Source: Lama guanicoe (Eukaryota). Taken from it: 54,588 bases of DNA. Below, in pieces: positions 7,311-49,829 of this stretch. The notes beneath the pieces were generated by a model. It was not told the DNA's origin and ran no database searches. It saw only the letters and a program-made list of their open reading frames with translations. How positions within the stretch are numbered: the first letter of the stretch is position 1; the number at the start of each line of letters is the position of its first letter. Where the stretch lies: the NCBI GenBank assembly GCA_013239625.1, contig MU053691.1:8588-63175 (forward strand), given 5' to 3'. The position numbers and the translations under genes were made by a program.

Positions 7311-9860
7311 TATGTAGTTAGAAGTCATTAATTGTTTTTAAAGACAGAAAAATTGAATCAGTAATTGAATAGGAAAAAAGAAGGCCTCCATCCTTGGAGA
7401 TGGGACAGGTAAGACGAGGAAAGTTAATGACAAGACAATCAAAATAAGAAATATTGCTGACATAATGATATACAGATAATGCCAACTGTTTACCATCATC
7501 CTAGAGTAAAATGAGGGTCTTTATGAGGTAATTTGAAACCCAAATAGATACCTATGCATGCTTGAGACAGAACTGGTTATGTCAAACACTAAGATACAAA
7601 TAGATAGATTAAAAAAATAAGAAGGCTGCGTCCAGCAATGCTACATGTGAATTCACTCATCTATACATTCATTCAACACAACGCTCTCGTGTACATGTCA
7701 TTCATGTCTTATGCAGGAATATGTATGTGTAGGAAGTTACAAAAATTAGAACTAAAACTTTATGTTAATCAAATCTGCAATATTCTGCTATTCATTGCTA
7801 CAGCAAGACCAGCTGTTTCTTCTTGCATGACATCTTGGTTTTTTCCTTCCAAAACATATGGTATCAAGCAAAAGTCAGTAATTTTCTACCTGTTAAAAAC
7901 TCCAATTTCTCAATCTTATCAGCAACTATCAGCTATGTTAAACTAGTGCTACAAATTCATACCACAATTTAGAGGTCATCTCGATACTTTTGGCTTTGAC
8001 CTTCAAAGTTATTATAATCTCAAGTGTTCTCCCCTGGTTCTTCTTTTAAAAAAATGAATTTTAGGGATTATTTATTCATCCACCCATTCAATCAAAAGCT
8101 GACTGTTTACCAGGCATTAAACTAGGCACTGGAGATTGCAAGATAAATGCTGGGCTTCAGATTCCAGCAAAACCCCACGTCACAAAATATCCATTTGCAC
8201 ATAATACCACTCTTGTTTGCTTAAACCTTCTATAGTGATCTTCTTCCTCTGCTTTTTAAAACTGTATATAACCCTCTATGAAGAGGATGTTGGTGATCTC
8301 ACTGCCATACCAGTGGTGATGAGAGTTACTTATTGAAATAGGTTCATTTTTCCTTATGGCCAAAGCTATGTGCAAAGTAGCTACATGCTAACACATTGAT
8401 TACCAACACAAAGGAACTTCCAAGTTCTAAACATGTAAATAACAAACCTTCCATCTTCAAATCCCAGGCACATACCTTCTAAGTTTAAATCATTTCAGTC
8501 TCCAGGACAGGGGCTATCTTTTGGTTATTTTCTTTCTTTTCTGTTCACCCTGTCCCACACCCACCCCTGCAGGTTTCTTCCAGAACATCCTTTTCTCAGG
8601 GTTTCCTGTTTGCCTGTAAATTAACTAGAGCCCTGCTGCTAAGTTGGAGGCTTTCACTGGTTACCAAAGATTCATCCCACCCAACACCCAGACACGCTAT
8701 TCACCCAAACACTGGCTGGAATGGATCCAGATTCCTGGCTGTCATCTCTGGTTTCACCAAGTATTTTGACCTCCACTGCCCTAAACTCACAGCACCTGAC
8801 ACTGAACCCTGATATTTCAATGCCTGAGAAAAACTGTACCTTTCCCAGGGAGGGGGTTAGGGAGCAGGGGTGGAGAGGGAGGGGAGGATGTTGAGAGGGA
8901 CAGATGCACAGTTCTGTGGCCCAGTCTGTTAATGACACCCAGCAGGTGTCTCTCCATTGCTGTTCCAGAGAACGCGGACTTGGATCCCTGAGAGTCGGTA
9001 AGTACTGCTGCATGGGCTGTCCACCTTGAGACTCATGGTGCTAGACAAACACTCTTAGAAGTTATATCGTTGACAAACTGTTTCATCTTAACAGTGATCC
9101 CCATACTATCTCCATCATGAAACATGTTTGTGTGTGAGAGACAGAAAAAGAGAAAGACAGAGACAGAGACAGAGAGAGAACATGTCAGTAACACTCCCAA
9201 GGACCCAGTGCTCTAAGGGATACACGTGAAAACACTGTGCTGGGCCAGACTTTCACCAGTTCCTTAATTCAGTTTCTACAATGTTCATTCTATTTCTACT
9301 CTAAATCTAATCTTTAAATCTTTGCCTCTGTCCTCAAACACATCCTCAAACACTGCCATGCCTCTCACTCTTAGGCTTGCCTCCTAATACTGTCCCCTTT
9401 GATGACAGTACTATACCCTCTGTCCTGGATTTCCTCCCACCCCTCTGTCGACCTCCTCAGTCTTCATGGCCCAGGCTGAAGCCCTTGTTTCCATTATAAG
9501 CCTTTGTTTTCCCTTCATATCCACACAGGTAACTACTTTGTCAACATTTCCAAGAAGCATCTTGGATCACATGAAAATCTAAAAATAAACTCAATTTTCT
9601 TCCCCTAAATATTCAGTGATCCTGATTACTGGAAACTGGAAACTAGTCACCCAGCCACAAAGCTGAGAGTCATCTAAACATCCCTCCCTACTTTGCCTCA
9701 GCATCTGACACATCACTAATTCTCCAGTTCACTTACTTCCCTCCATTTCCATGGCCATAACCCTTGTCCAAACTACCTCCTCTCTCAATTTGCCTTTTTG
9801 ATACTGGGCTTAGTCTCCTCATAGCCATCCGTGGCTCTCTAATATAAGTCCTACAGGGCA

Positions 9861-10831
9861 CACAGTGCCACCGCCCACGGGGACCACGAGTAAAAGGAGA
9901 GGAACCAGAACACATCAGCCGCTCTGAGGTACCTGCCGAGGAAGCGCCCAGAGGGCGAGGCCCTGGAGGGCTGGTGCCAGGGGCTGGAGGCGCGGAACCG
10001 GGAGCTGAGGGAGACGGCTGAGTAGGCGGAGTGGGAAATCCAGTATATCAAGGGGCTGCTCATCTAAGTGTACAACGCTTGAAGCAAGGGGTCCCGGAAC
10101 AGCTAGCCAGGCAGGGACTTTGTGCGGTAGGGGGCCCTGGTCTTCTGCTCTGGCTCCCTTGTCTTTCTGGGGCTGAGGTGGGAGGGTCCATCCCGCTGTC
10201 ATCCCCATGCATCCAGCTTCCCGTCAAACCCCTCCCTCCCTCCTCCCACCCCTCCTTTCTCTCTCCCCTTTGATCCTTGTCTCCTCTCCTGTCCATTCTT
10301 AATTGGCTCCCCTCTTCTCTCCCCAGAACCAAGGCATGTTTGGCCTCAGTCAACATGTACATCCATATGTAACAGCTGAGGAACAGAGCCCCACAGGAAA
10401 CCTGGGGAACAGGGGAGAGCTTGGAAACTTAGTCTCCCAAACAGGAAATGAGGCCAGGAAGCTCTGCAGAATGACGATGCATAGGAGGACAGGGGAATCA
10501 TCTGGGGACTAAGCCAAGAAAAGTTCTAAGAATGGTGCCCATAGAATGTAAGCCAAACAAGCCAGGTGACCTTGGGGAACTACATTTGGGGGATGGAGCC
10601 AAAAGGTGGGCAAGTTCGCAGAGCAGGTGGATATACAGGCAGATGGGGAGGTGGGCGGGGTGGAGAACAGCCGTAATTGATGACTGGGTGTTCATTTTAG
10701 CTCTGGGAGGAAGTCAGTGTTTTGTGAAGGTGTTGGAGGAGGGGCCGCATCAAGGTGAGGGGGGGCAGGGACTGACCCTTTTTGGGGAATTGTGAGTGGA
10801 AATAAAATGAAGCATTTCCTCTGAAAAAAAA
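9861..10831 (+). pseudogene. ATF5: 5'-truncated processed pseudogene of bZIP transcription factor ATF5 (bZIP + 3'UTR + polyA remnant)
   Basis: The frame from 9867 reads [75 protein letters not shown] (native stop TAG 10104-10106). This is colinear with the recalled ATF5 C-terminus ([75 protein letters not shown]). Four premature stops. AATAAA at 10801-10806 and A-tract at 10824-10831. No convincing TSD. Confidence 0.93.
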
Positions 10832-10869: not shown

Positions 10870-13330
10870 TTGACAGAAAATTATGACAGTACCAGGAGAC
10901 TAACACACTCCCCTATTACAGCACAGCCATTAACATCAAGACATTTTTAGTATTCATACAATACCACCATCTAATCCAGACCCATTCAGATTTTCTGATT
11001 TCCCAGCCTTGATCTTTATAGCAAAAACAAAACAATTAAACAAAGCAAATAAAACAAACAAAATGGGCTTCTCTTTTCATCCTTCTGTTTCCATTCCAGG
11101 ATCCAATTCAGGATCATATATTGATCTATTTGTCGTATGTTTTAGTTACCTTTAATTAGGAATGATTTCCCTAATATTTAATTAGCTTTTATGATCTTAA
11201 CATCTTTAGAGTTCTGGTCATTCATCCCATATAATTTCCTTTGATTTAGGTTTGTTTTATATTTTTGTATGATCAGATTCAGCATATGCATTTTTGGCCA
11301 GAATACTAGAGAAGTCAACCTGTGGTCTTTTCAGTGCAGCATAACAAAGACCAATGATATTCATGTGTCTCTGACTGATGATGTTAAATTTTATCACTTG
11401 GCTAAGATGTCAGCGAGGTTACTCCAATTTAAAGTTAATTAATAAGTATTTTTATTTATTAACTGATATGTGTAAGTATTTTATCAATTAATAAGTAATT
11501 AATCATTGTTTTCTGGGGCAAAACTCTGACACTATGTATAAACCCTGTTTCCTCAAGCATTTATCCACTAATTTTAGCATCTCCTGATGATCTTTCCTGA
11601 ATCAATTAACATAAATAGTGATTTTCTAATCTATCATAGAAAAACTAAGCAAAGAAATGGAGGATATAAAAAACCAAATAGAAATTATAGAACAAAAATT
11701 ACATTAACCAAAATAAAAAAGCCACCAGAGAGGCCAATGATCAATATTCAGAATTACTATCTCAGGGCAAATAATGGAACTTGAAGACAGAACAGAACAG
11801 TGAAAATAACCCAAACTGAACAACAGAGAGAAAATAGACTGAAAGAAGTTAATAGAATCACAGGGAACCACCTGTAGAAAAATAACAAAAAATTTAACAT
11901 TTGTATCAGCAGAGTCCCAAAAGGAAAAGAGAAAAATGTGGGACTGAAATAGTTTTCAAAGAAATAATAGACATAAATTTATAGGTACAAGGAGCTGTGT
12001 GAACCCCAAACAGAAATACATATCAAGACACACCAGAAATAAACTTCTGAGAACTACAGATAAAGGGAAACTCTCAAAAGTAGTAAAAGAGAAAAGGTAA
12101 ACTAATTACAAGGAGGAACAGTAGCTATCTCAATTGAAACTACGGAACCCAGAAGGAAGTGGCACACTTTTAAAGCAATGAAAGAAAAAATATATATTAC
12201 TCCAGATTTCTACATCCAGCAAGGCTGTCCTTCCAGAATAAAGGTGAAACAAGACATTCTCAGATGAATGAAAACTAAGTAATTTTGTTGCCAATAGAGC
12301 TGCTCTTAAAAATTCCCAAAAGAAGTTCTTCAGGCAGAAGGGAAATGACACCAGAAGGAAACTTGAAATACCATGAATGAAGAAGGAATCATAAAAGGAG
12401 TAAATATGGAATGCAACACAACTAATATTACATTTCTTCTGATACTGGGACTTAAGAAGCATCACACCTTCTGCTTTCACTCTCTTAGGATCTTGAGGCC
12501 TCCAAGTTTTGCAGAAATTCACACTAGATTTCTAGAAGAGGAGAGGCCTCCTTGGAGCACACACGGTGATGGCGTCAACTTCTAGGTACATTGAGTAGGT
12601 TGTTTTGGGTGTTTCATTTCCATTCAAGCCACAGAAGTGACCCTAGGCAAGACCAGGAGGAAAATCACCAACATTTTAAAACCACAGAATAGAGAAGTAA
12701 TAAATCGTTGTTGTTTTAAGCCTGTTTCAAATAATTCTTAAGAAAATAAAGATAAGCCAGAGATTTCATGAGAATATTTCCAAAACACATATCTGATAAA
12801 GAACTTATATCCAAAACATATAAAAACACTGATAATTCAGTAAGAAACCACTCAGCCCAGTAAAGAGATGGGGGATATTTTTCTGTCAACACTTCAACAT
12901 AGAAAATAAATGAATGTCAAAATATATATGAAAGGGTGGGTAAAATCATTAGTCATGGAAATTAATTGCTACTTAGTAATAAAGTGAAATCAACTACTGA
13001 CACATACAATAACATAGAGGAATCTCAAAAAGTGCAGAGTTAAACAAGCTAGACACAAAGAGTATGTATTACATAATTCCAGTTATATAAAATTTGAAAA
13101 CAGACAAGATTAATATATGATAATGAAAACCAGAACAGCGGTTTTTCTCTCTGGGTGCAAGGCAGTAACTGGGAAAAGAGAGAGGCGAACAGTTTTTGTT
13201 GTAGAAATGCTGTGTGTCTTAATTAAGGTGGTGGTTACATAGGTGTATACATTTGTCAAACCCATCAAACTTTAAACTTACCAACTGTGTCTTTTCAGTA
13301 AAGGTAAATCACAGCCCCCAAAAAAGAGAA
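10870..13330. mobile_element. Cluster of old L1M fragments (antisense 3' piece ~10870-11630, sense ORF1 region ~11640-12420, sense 3' end ~12740-13330) with a MaLR LTR piece ~12430-12725
   Basis: CAGAGTCCCAAAAGGAAAAGAG and TTCTCAGATGAATGAAAACTAAG (ORF1). MLT-type end AATAAATCGTTGTTGTTTTAAGCC. ACATATCTGATAAAGAACTTATATCCAAAAC (ORF2 end). Confidence 0.7.
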
Positions 13331-15702: not shown

Positions 15703-18700
15703 ACAGAGCAGCTGTTAGAAGACTCTGCAAACTGAGTAACAGCAGGACAACTGGAAAGAAGACCAGAATTTAAAGTACCACCAAATCTCTGGTAAAGTTA
15801 CCCTGTTTTTTATCCTGTGGTCCTGTCACCTCTTGGTCACAAAAGTAAGCAGCACAGAATAACTACGGCCCTGTTCTTCTGAATACAGAACCTGAAAGAA
15901 GTACTCCAGGGACATGAAGTGTACTGGGGAGGTTACGATGAGGGGAGACCTCATGAAAGAAATCTCAGTAAATTTTTAAATAATCTTAGAAAATTTAATC
16001 CCAAACTTTGTGTGCATGTCTGGACCTGATACTAATCAGTATAATAAAGACTTGTTAAACCTGATTATCAGAAAGACTTCTGGTCAGACCCAGCCGGCCG
16101 CTGGACGTGCACTTGTGGGACAGATCTGAATAGCTCTGCAAAAGCGTTGAAATTGAATTGACATTCAACCCAGAGCCAAAGAAGACGGGCTGAAACCTGT
16201 GGCCTGAATTTAACCACATAAATTTCTTGCCAAAACAAACATACCAACTTTATTCAAAGGATTAAAAAAAAAACCTCCGTGTATGAAAGCATGATATAGC
16301 AGTCCAAAATTCCTCAGCATATGAAGAAACAGGAGACTCTCAATTCTTACGGGAAAAGACGATCAACAAACATCAACATTGACATGACAAAGTTATTAGA
16401 ATTACCTGGCAAAGATTTTAAAATAGTAAGTTATTTAAAATATTCTAACGAGAAATTGCAAGCACTCCTAAAATTAATAGGTTGGAGGACTCAGAAATGA
16501 GGTATAAAGAAGGATCAGAAGGGGGTCCGCCGCATCTCCGCCAGCGGTCGGCCCTGAACCGCGCGCCGCCGGGAGCTCTCGGACTCGAGCCGGCGCCGAG
16601 GAGCCCGGGGCCGCTGCCCGCAGCGGCCGAGCGCAGGGCCGGCTGAGCGGGACGCCGCCGCCTCCTCCTCCTCCTCCTCAGCAGGCGGCGGCCCGGGCCG
16701 GCAGCCACGCCTAAGACCCCTGGGACGTGCGCCTGCGGCGAACAGGAGGGGAAGGAGGGGCAGGAGGTCGCGCGGCCTCAGCCCGTCCTGCCGGCCCCGC
16801 GGCGCTGAGGTGGCTCGCGCGTCCCCGCCGGGCGCCGCGGATCCGCTGAAGAAGATCAAAAGGCGGCTGTCAGTGACACTCCGAGGGGGCCGAGGTGTAG
16901 ACAAGACCAGTGGTGCCCCTGAACAGACAGGCCTGGGTGAGAGCGGCGGCGGCGGTGACCGGGGAGAGGCCCCCACACGTGCTGCCCCTGGGGAGCCCCG
17001 CTCTGGACGCGGCCCGCCCAGCTCCGCACCAGAGGCTGTACACGGGGACTGGAAGGTGGGGTCGCCGGGGAGAGGGGGCAGGCTTCCGCCGCGCCCTCGC
17101 GTGAGGGGCAGGCACCAGGGAGGGTGCGCATGTGCAACCCCCCACCCCTCACCCCCTTCACCTCCTCACACCCGCACCCCCGTGCAAGATCTCCACGGAG
17201 GACGTCAACAAGCGCCCATCACTAGCAGCCCCCATCCGGCTGCCCGCTGGCTCCCTTGAGAAGTTGACCCCAATATCCCCGTCTTTGACAAGCCCCTCGG
17301 CTGCCACCTCCGCCGTGTCAGCCTGCCTGAGATCGACTTTGGGAAACTGGAGACCTACATCAAGTTGGACAAGCTGGGAGAGGGTACATATGCCACCGTC
17401 TGCAAAGGCAAAAGCAAGCTCACAGACAACCTTGTGGCGCCCAGGGAGATCAGACTGAACACGAAGAGGGGGCGCCCTGCACCGCCATCTGGGAAGCGTC
17501 CCTGCTCAAGGACCTCAAACATGCCAGCATCATCCCACCACACGACATTATCCTCAGAGAGGTCGCTCACACTTGTCTTTTGACTACCTGGACAAGGACC
17601 TGACGCAGTACCTGGATGGCTGTGGGAACGTCATCAACATGCACAATGCAAAACTCTTCCTGTTCCAGCTGATCCGTGGCCTGGGCTGCTGCCACCGGCA
17701 GAAGGTGCTACACCGAGACTTCAAGCCCCAGAACCTGCTCATCAACGAGAGAGGAGAGCTCAAGCTGGCCGACTTCGGCCTGGCCCGGTCCGAGTCAGTT
17801 CCAATGAGGACCTACTCCAATTAGGTTGTAATGCTGTGTACCGGCCCCCAACATCCTGCTCGGGTCCACGGACTACTCCTCTCAGATTGGCATGTCGGGT
17901 GTGGGCTGCATCTTCTATGAGATGGCCACGGGCCAGCCCCTCTTCCTGGGCTCCACGGTGGAGGAACAGCTGCACCTCATCTTCCGCGTCTTGGGAGCCC
18001 CAACTGAGGAGACGTGGCCAGGCATCCTGTCCAGTGAAGAGTTCAAGACATACTGCTATCCCCAGTCCCCTTGTCCTTGCTGTAGACTTGACAGTGGCGG
18101 GGCTGACCTCCTCACCAAGCTGCTGCAGCTTGAAGTTCGCAATTGGATCTCCGCAGAGGATGCCATGAAACTTCTTTTCTTGCTCAGTCTGTGGAAGCGG
18201 ATCCACAAACTTCCTGACACTACTTCCATATTTGCACTAAAGGAGGTCCAGCTACAAAAGGAGGCCAGGCTTCAGTCTTCATCAATGCCTGCCTAAGGCA
18301 GGCCAGCTTTCTGGGTGATGGGCACCGAGTTCTAAGCCACAGACTGAGGCCCCAGCAGGCAGCAGCTGGAGGGATGCCACACCCCTCACAGGGCAGCCCC
18401 CAGCTGCATCCTTCCTGCTTGCTGCCTGCCTACCTGCCTGACGCATGCTCACCTTCCCATGTGTCCCCTGCTGCCTGTGCATACACCTGACCATTGGCCT
18501 GTCAGCCCACCCATTGGCCAGTCTGCTGAGTGCTAACAAAGCTCTCATCACTCCTTAAATTAAAAAGAAAATCAAAAGGAAATATTTGAACTGAAAAATT
18601 TAATAACTGAAGTATAAAACTCACTAAATGAGTTCAAAAGCATAAAGTGCATAACAGATGAAATTGTCAGTGAAACTGAAAATAGATCAATAGAAATTAT

Positions 18701-21415
18701 TTAACCTGGAAAAAGATATTTAAGACAAATTAACACAGCCAGAGGAACCTGTGAGAAAATAACAAAAGGCATAACATCCCTGCCATCAGAGTCCCAGAAG
18801 GACAGCAGAAGTTCAGTACTGAAAAAATATAATTCAAGATATAACATAAAAAACTGAAATCAATCAGAAAAAATGGCATATTACCTGTAAGAGAAGAACA
18901 ATTTGAATGACTAACCAGAAACTACAGAAGGAAGAGGCATGATATTTTTCAGTTGCTGAAAGAACAGAACTGTCAGCTTGAAAATCTATATTTAGTAAAA
19001 AAGACCCTAGGCATGAAGGCGAAATGAAAGTGTTCTCAGATGAAGGAAAACTAAGAGAATTTGTTGCCAGCAGATTTGCTGTAAAGGAATTGCTAAAGGA
19101 AGTTCAGATTGAAGGGAAATGATACCAGAAAATAATAGTATCTTAGGGATAGTAAGCAAGAGAAATGGTAATTGTCATGGTATATATAATAGGCTATTCT
19201 CTTAAGTTCTTAAAAATGCAGTTGATGGTTGAAAACAGAAAAAATAATAACACTATCTGCAGGTTTTTTAATGTGTACAGATGTAATATATAATACAACT
19301 ACAACCTAAAGGGGTTAAAGAGATTCACATGGTTTTAAGACAAAATTCCACTTAAGGATGAAAGTATTCATTTCAATGTGACTGTGAAAAGTTAAATATG
19401 TAAACTGTAATTTTCAAAGAAACCATCAAAAACTATTTATACAAGACATACTAAAAAAACACAGTCAATAAAGTTAAATGATAAAAGTATTCAAATAACT
19501 CAAAATGAAGGCAGGATTTGGGGAAACAAAGGAAAAACAGAGGAAAAACACATAAATCACTTAATAAAATGGTAGATCTAAATCCAAACATATCAATAAT
19601 TACATTAATTTTAAATGACCTAAACTCATCATTTAAAAGACAGACTCTCACAATAAATATGGTAAGATTCTACTTATAAGAGTTATCTAGAACAGCCAAA
19701 CTCTTAGAAAAAGAAAGTAGAATGGTGGTTGTCAGGAGAGGAAAGTTAGCTTCCTAAGGAATATAGAATTTGAGTTTTGTAGGATGAAAAAATTCTAGAG
19801 ATGTGTTACATAACAATATGCATTTGGTTAACACTTTTACACTGTACACTTAAAATGGTTAAGAGGATAAACTTTATGTATCTATAACACAATAAAACAT
19901 ACTGAAGTTGTCAAAATAAAAGAAACATCCAAACAAATAAATAAAGCATAGTCAAACTATATGTGGTTTTTGAGAAACCAATGTCAAATATAATATCAGT
20001 GGTTATAAATGAAAGAATGATAAATGATATAGCATACAAACACTAATCAAAGTAATACTCAAGTGAATATATTAATACAAAGAAGTATACTTCAAAGAAT
20101 GAAAATTACCAAGAATAAGAACATTGCATAATAAACTTATCAGTTTACCAAGAAGATGTAGATTCCTAAATGTACATATACCTAAAAAAAGAGTTTTAAA
20201 ATGCACAGAATAAAGAGCGTGAAGTTAAGGAGAAATAAAGAAACCTACAAATATAATTAGAGACTTCAACCCTCCTCTATTAGTACTGGATTCAACTAGG
20301 AAAAAGAAAGCCAGCAGGGATGTGGAAGAACTGAGCATCACCATTAACTAAAAAGGTAAAATTTACAATTACAGAATGCTTTACTGAACAGTAGCAGAAT
20401 ATACATTATATATATTGTATTCAAAATATACAAAAAAATTCAACAATAAGAACACAATCTGATTTAAAATGAACAAGAGATCTGAACAGACAACTACTGA
20501 AGATTTTCAGACAGTAAATCAACATGTAAAAAATTGTTCAACACCATTTGTTGAATGAAAATTGAATGAAAATTAACAAAGCGATGGGTTATCTCTACAC
20601 AGCTTTCAAAGAGACTAAACTAAAACCTGACAGTACCAGTTGCTGGTGAGGATGCAGAGTAACAGGAACTCTCATGCAAGGCTGCTGGGAATGGAAAATG
20701 GTAGAGCCACTTTGGAAGACAATTTAGCTGTGTTTTACAAAGTTCATAGTATTACCATAAAATCCAGCAACTGCACTCCTAGGTATTTAAATATTTCAAA
20801 GCTATATACATATAAAATTCAACACATAAATGTTTACAACTGCTTTACTCAATACTACCAAAAACTAAAAGCAACCAGGATGTCCTTGAGTACATGAATG
20901 GGTAAGCAAACAGTGGTACATCCGTACAATGGAATATTACTGAATAAGAGAATGAGCCATCAAGACACAAAAATACACAAATGTATCTTGAATGAATATC
21001 ACTAAGTTAAAGAAACCCATCAGAAAAGGCTACATATTGTACAATTCTAGTTATATAGCATTCTGAATAAAGCAAAATGATATATATTATAAACAGATCA
21101 GTGGTTGCCAGGAGTTCAGGGAACAAGAGGAAGGGATCAGTTTCCTAGGTGAAGCTTTGAGGATTTTTTAGCTTGGTGAAACCATCTGCATAATTTAAAA
21201 ACAGGTACATGTTATATGTGTGTCAAAACCCACAGAACTTTACAGCACAAAAACCAAATATTGATGTATACAAGTTAAAAATAGCTAGGAGATCAGTGTA
21301 TCCCAGAATAGAATGTAGAATGTGACTAAAGAATCTAACTATATACAAAGGTATGTAAAACCTGGCTGAAGGCAAAAAGACCTAAGAAATTTTGATATGA
21401 GTGGAATCTGTGAGA
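15703..21415 (+). mobile_element. Old L1M-type LINE-1 relic(s): 5'/ORF1 region, ORF2 start, 3' end; host of the CDK16 retrocopy; includes a nested L1M 3' end at ~19650-19900
   Basis: A-rich decayed L1 motifs, for example GAACTGAAAAATTTAATAACTGAAG, CATCAGAGTCCCAGAAGGA, TTCTCAGATGAAGGAAAACTAAGAGAATTTGTTGCCAGCAGA, GGATGCAGAGTAACAGGAACTCTCA. Subfamily not determined. Confidence 0.8.
16523..18563 (+). pseudogene. CDK16: Processed pseudogene of CDK16 (PCTAIRE-1 kinase) with 5'UTR, whole CDS and short 3'UTR
   Basis: Intronless colinear match to CDK16: [110 protein letters not shown]. Ends ...GTEF-TAA at 18333-18335. The initiator position is GCG (16837-16839). Multiple frameshifts and stops. Flanked by diverged TSDs AAAGAAGGATCAGAAGG (16506-16522) and AAAGAAAATCAAAAGG (18564-18579). 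Confidence 0.96.
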
Positions 21416-29029: not shown

Positions 29030-30124
29030 GCCTGTGCTTCCTCAGCCCAGAATGGAGTCACCCTGGAGGGCTACCTCCTGGAACTCTGGCTCAGTAATTT
29101 ACTGATTTTTCTCCTGAGTATTAATTAACCCCAGAAAGTGAGGGGTAAGAGCAAAAAAAGAAAAAAAATTCTCTGTATCTTGGAGATGGAGACTGAGCCC
29201 TGGCTGTGTCCTCAGGGATCCTGGGCTTTGGCCATTACCTGCCTGTCTCTAGGGGCTTTTTATCTCATGGAAGCAGGTCTCTCAGTGAGTGCTTCTAGGG
29301 AGCTAGGAGACTCAGGAACAAGTTTTCAGGAACCAATTCTAGCCATAGATTATTCTAGGATCCTTTTTAAACATCCCATAGTAGGTCAGAGACAGGTGGG
29401 TTCCAAGGGAATTATGTTAACTAAGAGAAAAATCTACAGGCTGAATGAGGGCATGCCAGGGGAAGTGGAGGCCCCAGAGGACTGTCCGCTCGGGGAACTA
29501 TATGCCTTTGTGCTAATGATGCCCCAGGTTAGTGAGCAGGCTTTTGCAAGAGCCTGGTTTGCAGACTTAAAGTACAAGCCTGTGCTTCCTCAGCCCAGAA
29601 TGGAGTCACCCTGGAGGGCTACCTCCTGGAACTCTGGCTCAGTAATTTACTGATTTTTCTCCTGAGTATTAATTAACCCCAGAAAGTGAGGGGTAAGAGC
29701 AAAAAAAGAAAAAAAATTCTCTGTATCTTGGAGATGGAGACTGAGCCCTGGCTGTGTCCTCAGGGATCCTGGGCTTTGGCCATTACCTGCCTGTCTCTAG
29801 GGGCTTTTTATCTCATGGAAGCAGGTCTCTCAGTGAGTGCTTCTAGGGAGCTAGGAGACTCAGGAACAAGTTTTCAGGAACCAATTCTAGCCATAGATTA
29901 TTCTAGGATCCTTTTTAAACATCCCATAGTAGGTCAGAGACAGGTGGGTTCCAAGGGAATTATGTTAACTAAGAGAAAAATCTACAGGCTGAATGAGGGC
30001 ATGCCAGGGGAAGTGGAGGCCCCAGAGGACTGTCCGCTCGGGGAACTATATGCCTTTGTGCTAATGATGCCCCAGGTTAGTGAGCAGGCTTTTGCAAGAG
30101 CCTGGTTTGCAGACTTAAAGTACA
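29030..30124. repeat. Exact direct tandem duplication, 547-bp unit (29030-29576 and 29578-30124), period 548
   Basis: Both copies run GCCTGTGCTTCCTCAGCCCAGAATGG...GCAGACTTAAAGTACA. No difference seen by eye. ORFs at 29138 and 29686 translate identically up to the junction. A single A at 29577 separates the copies. Confidence 0.95.
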
Positions 30125-30167
30125 CGCTGTTGATTATTTGGAGATGTGTAGAGCTTATCAGGCCTTA

Positions 30168-45429: not shown

Positions 45430-46380
45430 TCGTCTGCCAGCCGGCCCGCGGGAGGAGAGCTGGGCGCCAGACCAGACCCGTTTGGGCAAGGAAGTGGGCC
45501 AGGAAGCCCAGCCCTGCGCGGCTCCTTTGGCAAGGGGTCCGCCGCCGCCGCCGAGGGAACTTTTTGGGACTGCAGGCTGGGGCAGGGGCCGAGGGGCGGG
45601 GAGCATCCAGACTAGGGATTAGAGGGACGTGGACCCAGAGGAAGGGGGTTAGCGGCGATGGCCGGTTTAACGCCAAGAGTGCCCAACGTGCAAGGCGCGA
45701 TCCCCCGGCCCTTCCGAAGGGAGGTGGTGAGGGGGGCGCCGGGAGGTCTGGGGCCTCGGGCGGGCTGTTGCGGGGTGGGGGGAGCGCAGACCCGGGCCGG
45801 GGCGCGGGAGTCGGCGCCGGGGCAGAGGCCCCGGTGGGCCCGGGGTGGGCGACTCACCCCGGCCGCCGAGAGGCTCCACGGCGAAGACGCCCCGCCGGCC
45901 CCGCGTGGCCCCGGGCCGGCCCCTCCACGCCGCCTTGGCCGCGCCCCTCCCGGGCAAGCGGGCGGGCGGCTGGGCGCGGCCCCGGGACACCCCGAGCCGG
46001 AGTCGGGGAGGGGCGGGGGGCCCCCAGTGCCGACCAGGAACAGGCCCCGCTCTGCTGTCCTGCGCGCCCCCAGCCTAGGAGCGGGGACCCCCGCCTGGGG
46101 AGGCCCCGCCCTCGGTCCAGCAGCCGGTTTGCCCTCCTGCCGCCAAAACGAAACCGGGCGGGGGGTGAGGGGGGGCGACAGCGACCAGACGGGAGCGCGG
46201 AAGGAAGCGCAGCCGCTCGTGCTGGCGGTGGGAACAGCGGTGACCGGGACTGCGGCGTCCCCGCGCTCCCAGCTGTGTCCCTTAAGGCAAGTCACTCAGC
46301 CTCTCAGAAACCTGGTGAGACCGGAGCGGGAAGTGATTCTCAGCACAGGGAATCCCTTTCCAACAACTGCGTAGAGCCTT
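45430..46380. promoter_or_regulatory. CpG island / probable promoter with no identified gene
   Basis: About 950 bp, very GC- and CpG-rich. GC boxes (GGGGCGGG ~45593, ~46010) and ETS-like GGAAGTG motifs (~45490, ~46329). Minus-strand donor CGGG|GTGAGT at 45857 and plus-strand donor CTG|GTGAGA at 46315. Confidence 0.75.
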
Positions 46381-49729: not shown

Positions 49730-49829
49730 GGGGAGGGTAAAGCTCAGTGATAGTGTGTGCTTAACATGCACGAGGTCCTGTGTTCAATCCCCAGTGCCTC
49801 CATTAGAAAGTAAGTAAGTAAAATAAAAC
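49730..49829 (+). mobile_element. tRNA-Ala-derived SINE head (camelid Vic-1-like)
   Basis: GGGGAGGGTAAAGCTCAGTGATAG (A box) ... TTAACATGCACGAGGTCCTGTGTTCAATCCCCAGTGCCTCCA (B box, tRNA-like 3' end), followed by an AAGT/AAAT tail. Confidence 0.85.

What the first reader, a model, noticed from the sequence alone, without database searches (positions are those of the whole stretch)
16523..17185. CDK16 retrocopy 5' end shows strongly directional AT->GC change and keeps a CpG island (gBGC hotspot signature)
Seen against the recalled CDK16 protein: nearly all N-terminal replacements go toward GC-rich codons. Examples: M1->A (GCG), M4->L (CTG), Q->R, M->V, I->V, N->S, I->T, D->G, L->P twice, I->A, E->G, L->W, M->V, D->P. 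CpGs are dense, not depleted. The kinase-domain part downstream decays in the ordinary way (for example NRIS->NWIS, and E->TAG after TYSN). Established: GC-biased gene conversion at recombination hotspots fixes weak->strong mutations, and unmethylated CpG islands attract PRDM9-independent recombination. Inference: the retrocopy brought its own CpG-rich 5'UTR into AT-rich L1 DNA, stayed unmethylated in the germline and became a long-lived hotspot, possibly also a new promoter.
Basis: partly seen in the sequence, partly recalled or inferred. Interest (0 to 1): 0.7.

Follow-up and report, generated by a model that had tools for sequence, protein, structure and literature searches.

The report
Dead CDK16 retrocopy gaining GC
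A dead, intron-less copy of the CDK16 gene, pasted into AT-rich repeat DNA of a mammal (probably a camelid), has changed almost only from A/T to G/C across its CpG-rich front end while its tail drifted without direction, the footprint expected if the imported CpG island became a long-lasting site of meiotic recombination.

Summary
16523-18556 is a dead CDK16 retrocopy in L1-like DNA, with a target-site duplication. At codon positions fixed by CDK16 proteins of several mammals, 16523-17185 shows 26 of 84 A/T sites turned G/C, 3 of 194 G/C sites turned A/T and 3 of 278 GC-conservative changes; the distal part shows 15 of 217, 16 of 219 and 4 of 436. W->S is about 5 times faster, S->W about 5 times slower, neutral classes unchanged: the gBGC signature. 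Best reading (0.6): long-lasting gBGC at an imported, germline-unmethylated island. Not shown: methylation, recombination, PRDM9 independence, promoter activity; parent mRNA and raw reads were not seen, so assembly error is unlikely but open. A decayed felid CDK16 retrocopy shares four of the GC-ward changes but also a carnivore residue; orthology unresolved. The scan noted the same pattern before on other DNA (ARHGDIA, POP7, SRSF2, PHETA1 retrocopies; unchecked notes). My paper searches found no study of retrocopy-seeded hotspots.

The parts
16200..16505 (+). Old L1-like, AT-rich upstream flank (left end approximate); no GC rise in 50-base bins
   Evidence: Aligns with another L1-like copy near 11600-11700; GC 0.24-0.40 per 50 bases. 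The L1 label is recalled, not from a library search.
16506..16522 (+). Upstream copy of the target-site duplication; carries G at two substituted sites and one extra G where the downstream copy and another L1-like copy have A
16523..16836 (+). CDK16 5'UTR-derived CpG island core (GC 0.81, CpG o/e 0.96); W->S 6 of 22, S->W 3 of 101 against pig/fox/dolphin
16837..17255 (+). Former N-terminal coding sequence, zone of strongest A/T->G/C change; start codon lost (GCG)
   Evidence: 20 of 62 W->S, 0 of 93 S->W in 16837-17185; bins stay high to about 17250
17137..17185 (+). About 35 extra bases of C-rich 8-mer tandem repeat inside the former coding sequence
   Evidence: insertion against the parent protein; period 8, 5.8 copies
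17256..18335 (+). Rest of the dead coding sequence (kinase domain), GC bias tapering to balance; frameshifts, stops at 17822 and 18294; carries the SPCPC splice variant
   Evidence: variant also in fox, whale, leopard proteins
18336..18556 (+). CDK16 3'UTR-derived segment, CpG-depleted (1 CpG in 225 bases), undirected change (2 of 39 W->S, 5 of 74 S->W)
   Evidence: porpoise/yak read-through translations
18557..18563 (+). Short A-rich remnant, probably the decayed tail
   Evidence: sequence; inference
18564..18579 (+). Downstream copy of the target-site duplication (A-rich, matching the other L1-like copy at the differing sites)
18580..19500 (+). Continuation of the interrupted L1-like element (right end approximate)
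   Evidence: matches to 11870-11933 and 12257-12356

Best explanation
An L1-made copy of a CDK16 mRNA, including about 310 bases of CpG-rich 5'UTR, was inserted into an old AT-rich L1 element (shown). The copy lost its coding capacity (shown). Its 5' 730 bases then fixed A/T->G/C changes about five times faster, and G/C->A/T changes about five times slower, than its 3' end (shown at protein-fixed sites). The cause is GC-biased gene conversion (strong inference). The most likely reason recombination stayed there for a large share of the copy's life is that the imported island escaped germline methylation and acted as a 'default', promoter-like hotspot, with gBGC renewing CpGs in a feedback loop (inferred, not tested). 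A constant population-scaled bias of B about 5 (2.6-9.8) would give the observed W->S gain.
For: Opposite shifts of W->S and S->W with unchanged GC-conservative rates; A and T sites both affected, A>G 13 of 58, T>C 5 of 26; transversions raised too; taper with distance (Spearman p=8e-6 for W->S); upstream target-site copy gained G; CpG loss 1 of 52 vs 7 of 35; Arg CGN decay 1 of 10 vs 7 of 16 (p=0.10); method control: an owl-monkey CDK16 retrocopy scored the same way gives 13 S->W to 5 W->S among 26 changes. Literature: hypomethylated loci show gBGC-inferred recombination in 33 of 52 mammals, many with intact PRDM9 (PMC11161765 section 8); newly hypomethylated mouse regions become hotspots in PRDM9-KO (PMC13186367 passage); five retrocopy-type human islands were nearly unmethylated in sperm (PMC4122923).
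Against: No parent mRNA, so synonymous sites are unpolarised: third-position comparison with yak gives 6:0, but kinase-part comparisons with other species also lean W->S (11:2, 7:3), so it does not discriminate. Non-CpG S->W suppression is not significant (p=0.15), and S->W (0.22) is higher than constant B=5 predicts (0.03), so the hotspot was probably intermittent. Upstream flank shows no GC rise beyond the target-site copy, although a hotspot centred on the island should spill over. A downstream flank piece (18747-18810) also shows an unpolarised 12:2 GC lean. T>G exceeds A>C in the finding (6 of 26 vs 2 of 58, p=0.01; p=0.10 when extended to 17255), which gBGC does not predict. In dog, intergenic CpG islands are not enriched for hotspots and gBGC creates islands (PMC4350167); most retrocopy-type islands were methylated in monocytes (77 of 104). 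First positions of Arg and Leu and all Ser codons were left out, which hides some CpG loss (adding Arg first positions: 26:4 vs 15:18, p=0.001).
Confidence: 0.6

Rival explanations
1. gBGC, but from one or more ordinary PRDM9-directed hotspots or a high-recombination region that happened to cover the 5' end; CpGs survive because gBGC opposes their loss, not because the island is unmethylated.
For: Same substitution signature. gBGC generates CpG islands away from genes in dog (PMC4350167). Distal GC* (0.49) is above local GC (0.39) and a second, non-retrocopy CpG island lies at 45430-46290. Non-CpG S->W drop is borderline.
Against: The peak coincides with the imported island and starts at the insertion edge. 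A brief burst would leave S->W near background, but it is 0.22 (0.05-0.62) of background and CpG loss 0.10 (0.01-0.51). PRDM9 hotspots are short-lived (PMC11323403 passage).
Confidence: 0.17
2. The copy became a transcribed non-coding unit or promoter, and selection for high 5' GC (export, avoidance of silencing) or a promoter-linked mutational bias drove the change.
For: Functional retrogenes have higher GC4 than their parents, read as selection (PMC7181179); many retrocopy promoters overlap CpG islands (PMC4772013). Only one ATG and 4 TpA remain in 733 bases. T>G/A>C asymmetry. One-mismatch NRF1-type site at 17125-17136 (motif recalled).
Against: The ORF is destroyed; about 30% of W sites changing regardless of context needs implausibly even selection per base; pseudogenes in the same study lost GC4. 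A mutational hotspot would raise GC-conservative changes, which are flat. The target-site copy outside the mRNA also gained G.
Confidence: 0.1
3. Assembly or base-calling errors in a GC-rich, poorly covered stretch.
For: The window has N gaps and a 548-base near-exact tandem duplication. The best DNA runs hold only 0.58-0.68 of the sampled words, and the GC-rich 5' part is 32% of that query, so the missing words could be exactly this part (or 1.2-1.7% even divergence). T>G excess. Raw reads were not seen.
Against: Changes are not enriched after GG or before CC (6 of 25 vs 25 of 79, p=0.62); most are transitions; GC-conservative changes are not raised; the taper extends over a kilobase; four changes recur in a felid retrocopy.
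Confidence: 0.07
4. The GC alleles came in with the source: the parent, or an earlier already GC-shifted retrocopy, or A-to-I edited RNA.
For: The 5'UTR references are not the host's own. A felid retrocopy (P0209; P0212, Lynx) shares M13V, I31T, L43R, L62P (chance 0.006-0.06 by the count taken), which would fit a common, already shifted source.
Against: The 20 coding changes are at residues identical in alpaca, Bactrian camel, pig and horse (490 of 495 codons agree). At least 7 of 11 W->S changes in 16873-17064 are absent from the felid copy. Editing gives only A>G, but 11 of 26 T sites changed. An intermediate source only moves the same bias elsewhere.
Confidence: 0.06

Closest known systems
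PRDM9-independent ('default') recombination hotspots at germline-hypomethylated, promoter-like CpG islands, inferred from gBGC (Joseph et al. 2024, PMC11161765, section 8 and passages read; dog: Berglund et al., PMC4350167, passages read)
   Same: A CpG-dense island with GC* near 1, raised W->S, suppressed CpG loss, signal decaying over about a kilobase.
   Different: Here the island belongs to no live gene: it was imported by retrotransposition into L1-like DNA and sits on a dead pseudogene. Methylation, DSBs and PRDM9 status are untested. Camelid names were not found in that paper's text or in the 4 supplementary files held; its datasets may not all be held.
L1-mediated processed pseudogenes (recalled class; GC4 loss of pseudogenic retrocopies in PMC7181179, passages read)
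   Same: No introns, target-site duplication, tail remnant, frameshifts and stops.
   Different: Typical pseudogenes lose GC and CpG (as the owl-monkey and felid CDK16 copies do); this one gains GC at its 5' end.
Retrocopy-derived CpG islands such as PPP1R26P1 in RB1 (PMC4122923, abstract and first part of section 15 read)
   Same: A CpG island carried in by a retrocopy; some are unmethylated in sperm.
   Different: Described for methylation and imprinting; the parts I read do not treat substitution bias or recombination. No host gene or imprint is shown here.
5' GC gain of functional retrogenes read as selection (PMC7181179; summarised in PMC11323403, passages read)
   Same: GC gain after retroposition, strongest near the 5' end.
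   Different: This copy has no open frame, so the gain cannot be selection on the protein's expression; it suggests a non-adaptive route to the same pattern.

Membership tests
L1-mediated processed pseudogene | Introns absent; collinear with spliced mRNA | tested here: met
   495-codon CDK16 protein aligns continuously over 16837-18332 with UTR homology on both sides
L1-mediated processed pseudogene | Target-site duplication | tested here: met
   16506-16522 and 18564-18579, 14 of 17 columns alike
L1-mediated processed pseudogene | 3' poly(A) tail | tested here: inconclusive
   Only 7 A-rich bases before the downstream copy; no AATAAA in 16300-18700
L1-mediated processed pseudogene | Coding capacity lost | tested here: met
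   Start codon lost, several frameshifts, stops at 17822 and 18294
gBGC tract | W->S raised and S->W lowered after polarisation | tested here: met
   26 of 84 vs 15 of 217; 3 of 194 vs 16 of 219; protein-fixed sites only
gBGC tract | GC-conservative substitutions not raised | tested here: met
   3 of 278 vs 4 of 436, p=1.0; small numbers
gBGC tract | Strand symmetry of the bias | tested here: inconclusive
   A>G = T>C (p=1.0) but T>G > A>C (p=0.01; 0.10 in the wider span)
gBGC tract | Holds at synonymous sites against the true parent | tested here: inconclusive
   Only other species' third positions available; W->S lean in both 5' and kinase parts
gBGC tract | Fixation bias seen in allele-frequency spectra | not tested
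   No reads or variants were examined
PRDM9-independent CpG-island hotspot | CpG island by composition | tested here: met
   663 bases, GC 0.76, o/e 0.81
PRDM9-independent CpG-island hotspot | Germline hypomethylation | not testable with these tools
   Indirect only: CpG loss 1 of 52 vs 7 of 35, which gBGC could also give
PRDM9-independent CpG-island hotspot | Meiotic DSBs or crossovers concentrated there, independent of PRDM9 | not testable with these tools
   No map available; no camelid PRDM9 paper in the 20 listed of 575
PRDM9-independent CpG-island hotspot | Evolutionary stability of the hotspot | tested here: inconclusive
   S->W ratio 0.22 (0.05-0.62) argues for long action; non-CpG part borderline; no branch-wise data
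Retrocopy-borne promoter | Transcription start within the island | not tested

The most novel reading that the evidence does not exclude
A few hundred bases of CpG-rich 5'UTR, moved by L1 machinery into methylated repeat DNA, are sufficient to found a new meiotic hotspot that lasts tens of millions of years in a PRDM9-bearing mammal, with no functional gene attached. Retrocopies would then be dated, randomly placed natural insertions that test what makes a default hotspot, and the 5' GC gain of retrogenes would be largely gBGC, not selection. In the boldest form the felid copy is the same insertion, more than about 70 million years old (date recalled), in which the hotspot was on at first, then went off in cats and stayed on in camelids.
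Probability: 0.3. Interest if true: 0.72.

Novelty: new variant of a known kind. Interest (0 to 1): 0.45.

Why it matters
What makes a PRDM9-independent hotspot (CpG-rich sequence itself, lack of methylation, or real promoter function) is open, because such hotspots sit on live promoters where the factors are confounded. A dead retrocopy carries the island without the gene, has a known ancestral sequence and brings its own 3' control. If retrocopies with a 5' island systematically show this footprint, and those without do not, island sufficiency becomes testable genome-wide from existing alignments, and the selective reading of retrogene 5' GC gain needs a neutral null. As one locus it is a clean example of known processes.

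Tried and rejected
No host genome was held, so neither the parent gene nor other retrocopies of the host could be aligned. Read-level checking was not obtained, which leaves base calls, polymorphism and expression open. Protein searches for an annotated translation of this copy in other camelid assemblies: none among 8000 candidates, 57 hits with the N-terminal piece, none carrying the window's derived residues as a set, 16 hits among representatives, one of them the felid copy; weak evidence of absence since dead ORFs are rarely called. A-to-I editing rejected (T sites change as often). General hypermutation rejected (neutral classes flat). GG-context miscalls not supported. No strict G-quadruplex pattern in 16523-17255. 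Third-position test with yak, a rodent-like and an unnamed protein: not discriminating. Flank polarisation: no blastn hit for the upstream flank, only unpolarised hits downstream. Lynx N-terminal 46 residues found no significant match near the insertion. Dropped before counting: codons next to indels, codons where references disagree, Ser codons, Arg/Leu first positions, and three poorly aligned stretches (16745-16792, 17830-17856, 18054-18086); unmasked counts were 27 of 89 and 6 of 210 for the finding. ARAGORN found nothing. Literature: searches (listings only unless named) showed no paper on retrocopy-seeded hotspots or on a camelid CDK16 pseudogene; bioRxiv 10.64898/2026.06.26.734816 has no occurrence of gene conversion, CpG or methylation. 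The library lacks most subscription papers.

Full report
What it is. Window 16523-18556 is an intron-less copy of CDK16 on the + strand. Mammalian CDK16 proteins align continuously from 16837 to 18332. Predicted proteins that read through the 5'UTR in pig, dolphin, fox and sloth align from 16523, and porpoise and yak read-throughs of the 3'UTR align to about 18556. A target-site duplication brackets it (16506-16522, 18564-18579) and both flanks match another L1-like stretch of the window (the L1 label is recalled). The start codon is now GCG, and there are several frameshifts, two internal stops and a C-rich repeat expansion, so it is a dead processed pseudogene. The host is probably a camelid: a SINE near 49731 resembles a camelid type I recall, and an unchecked scan note on this genome says camelid. 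I did not verify this; the counts do not depend on it, because only codons identical in alpaca, Bactrian camel, pig and horse were used (490 of 495). The copy keeps E437 where both camelids have D, so in a camelid host it predates their split (more than 11 million years per the abstract of PMC13751797, listing); distal divergence is 35 of 436 sites.

Method. No host genome was held and no parent mRNA or reads were seen. I polarised changes at codon positions where every codon of the parent residue has the same base, then dropped codons beside indels, codons where references disagree and three poorly aligned stretches. Ser codons and Arg/Leu first positions fall out by design. The 5'UTR and 3'UTR references are other species, so the coding count is the cleanest.

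Result. Coding part of the finding: 20 of 62 W sites became S, 0 of 93 S sites became W. Whole finding: 26 of 84, 3 of 194, and 3 of 278 GC-conservative changes; GC* 0.95 (0.88-0.99). 17256-17700: 13 of 147 and 3 of 86 (GC* 0.72). 17701-18600: 15 of 217, 16 of 219, 4 of 436 (GC* 0.49). The W->S rate ratio is 5.1 (2.8-9.8), the S->W ratio 0.22 (0.05-0.62); CpG loss is 1 of 52 against 7 of 35, non-CpG loss 2 of 142 against 12 of 270 (p=0.15). Transitions and transversions both rise, A and T sites both change, and adding Arg first-position CpG losses leaves the contrast (p=0.001). The island has GC 0.76 and CpG o/e 0.81 in a background of 0.39 and 0.16. The upstream target-site copy has G at three places where the downstream copy and a third L1-like copy have A: small, but independent of any reference. 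An owl-monkey CDK16 retrocopy scored at protein level gives 13 S->W and 5 W->S of 26 changes, so the method does not make the bias.

Mechanism. Opposite movement of W->S and S->W with flat neutral classes is what biased conversion gives and what hypermutation, RNA editing or mere protection from deamination do not give (established theory; counts). Constant B of about 5 fits the gain but predicts an S->W factor of 0.03; the observed 0.22 suggests action over most, not all, of the copy's life (inference). Why here? The peak covers the imported 5'UTR and the first 420 coding bases and fades downstream. Hypomethylated promoter-like loci carry gBGC-inferred hotspots in 33 of 52 mammals, many with intact PRDM9 (PMC11161765, section 8); a review states that newly hypomethylated mouse regions became hotspots in the PRDM9 knockout (PMC13186367, passage); five retrocopy-type human islands were nearly unmethylated in sperm though 77 of 104 were methylated in monocytes (PMC4122923). 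I put 0.6 on a long-lasting default hotspot at an unmethylated imported island. The steps 'unmethylated', 'PRDM9-independent' and 'promoter' are inferred only.

Against. gBGC can itself create or preserve islands, and intergenic dog islands are not enriched for hotspots (PMC4350167). The upstream flank shows no GC rise; a downstream flank piece shows an unpolarised 12:2 GC lean. Third positions against other species lean W->S in the kinase part too (6:0, 11:2, 7:3), so that test is uninformative. T>G exceeds A>C. The best DNA runs share only 0.58-0.68 of sampled words, which fits either 1.2-1.7% even divergence or absence of exactly the GC-rich 32% of the query; errors are made unlikely by context and class tests but are not excluded.

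A second copy. P0209 (unnamed) and its cluster mate P0212 (Lynx canadensis) are a decayed CDK16 N-terminus full of CpG-type losses that shares I31T, L43R and L62P with the window, and M13V in the lynx model. Chance of such overlap in independent copies is 0.006-0.06 depending on how many felid W->S changes are counted, before matching the allele. Against orthology, it has the carnivore residue V47 and its upstream residues look like another part of L1 (recalled) with no match near the window's insertion. Either it is the same old insertion with the hotspot switched off in cats, or these sites change convergently. Unresolved; flank synteny would decide.

Comparison and novelty. It is a processed pseudogene (membership met but for a weak tail) and a gBGC tract (main features met at protein-fixed sites). 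It works like a default CpG-island hotspot; membership is untested. Retrocopy promoters in CpG islands (PMC4772013, passages) and 5' GC gain in live retrogenes read as selection, with GC loss in pseudogenes (PMC7181179, passages; PMC11323403, passages), are known. Searches showed no paper on retrocopy-seeded hotspots; the library is incomplete and bioRxiv supplements are closed. The scan holds four unchecked notes of the same pattern in other genomes; they are leads that the class recurs, not support. Verdict: real, gBGC very likely (about 0.8 over the first two explanations), a new variant of a known kind, interest 0.45.

Noticed in passing
P0209 / P0212 (Lynx canadensis model): Decayed felid CDK16 retrocopy sharing four GC-ward replacements with the window copy but carrying the carnivore residue V47; possible ortholog that lost the island, or convergence.
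   Followed up: partly
P0185, P0186, P0188, P0213 (Aotus nancymaae): An owl-monkey CDK16 retrocopy with ordinary S->W decay; its N-terminal 110 residues are joined to unrelated sequence in two models that the source names KLRF2, so a CDK16 retrocopy may serve as a first exon there.
   Followed up: partly
window 45430-46290: A second strong CpG island (GC 0.76, o/e 0.78) just downstream of an L1 3' end, followed by GC-rich CpG-poor DNA; no gene identified.
   Followed up: no
window 9830-10050: Small CpG-rich patch (GC 0.62, o/e 0.57 in 9801-10000).
   Followed up: no
window 29030-30125: Tandem duplication of 548 bases with 1 mismatch; recent duplication or assembly artefact.
   Followed up: no
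window 17125-17136: One-mismatch match to a recalled NRF1-type palindrome, the only one in the window (0.02 expected); the mismatch is the single Arg-codon CpG loss in the island's coding part.
   Followed up: partly
window 18054-18086: The copy carries the rarer SPCPC splice variant and lacks about a dozen codons just before it.
   Followed up: no
window 16523-16836: The CDK16 5'UTR reads as an open frame fused to the start codon that is nearly invariant in pig, dolphin, whale, fox, sloth and deer mouse models; possibly a non-AUG N-terminal extension of the live gene.
   Followed up: no
window 18336-18563: Only about 220 bases of 3'UTR and no AATAAA: early polyadenylation or internal priming.
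   Followed up: no
window 17256-18600: A>G outnumbers T>C on the sense strand (18 of 208 vs 7 of 156, p=0.14); would fit germline transcription but is not significant.
   Followed up: partly
window 49731-49810: Short tRNA-like SINE head resembling a camelid SINE (recalled, not tested; ARAGORN called no tRNA).
   Followed up: no
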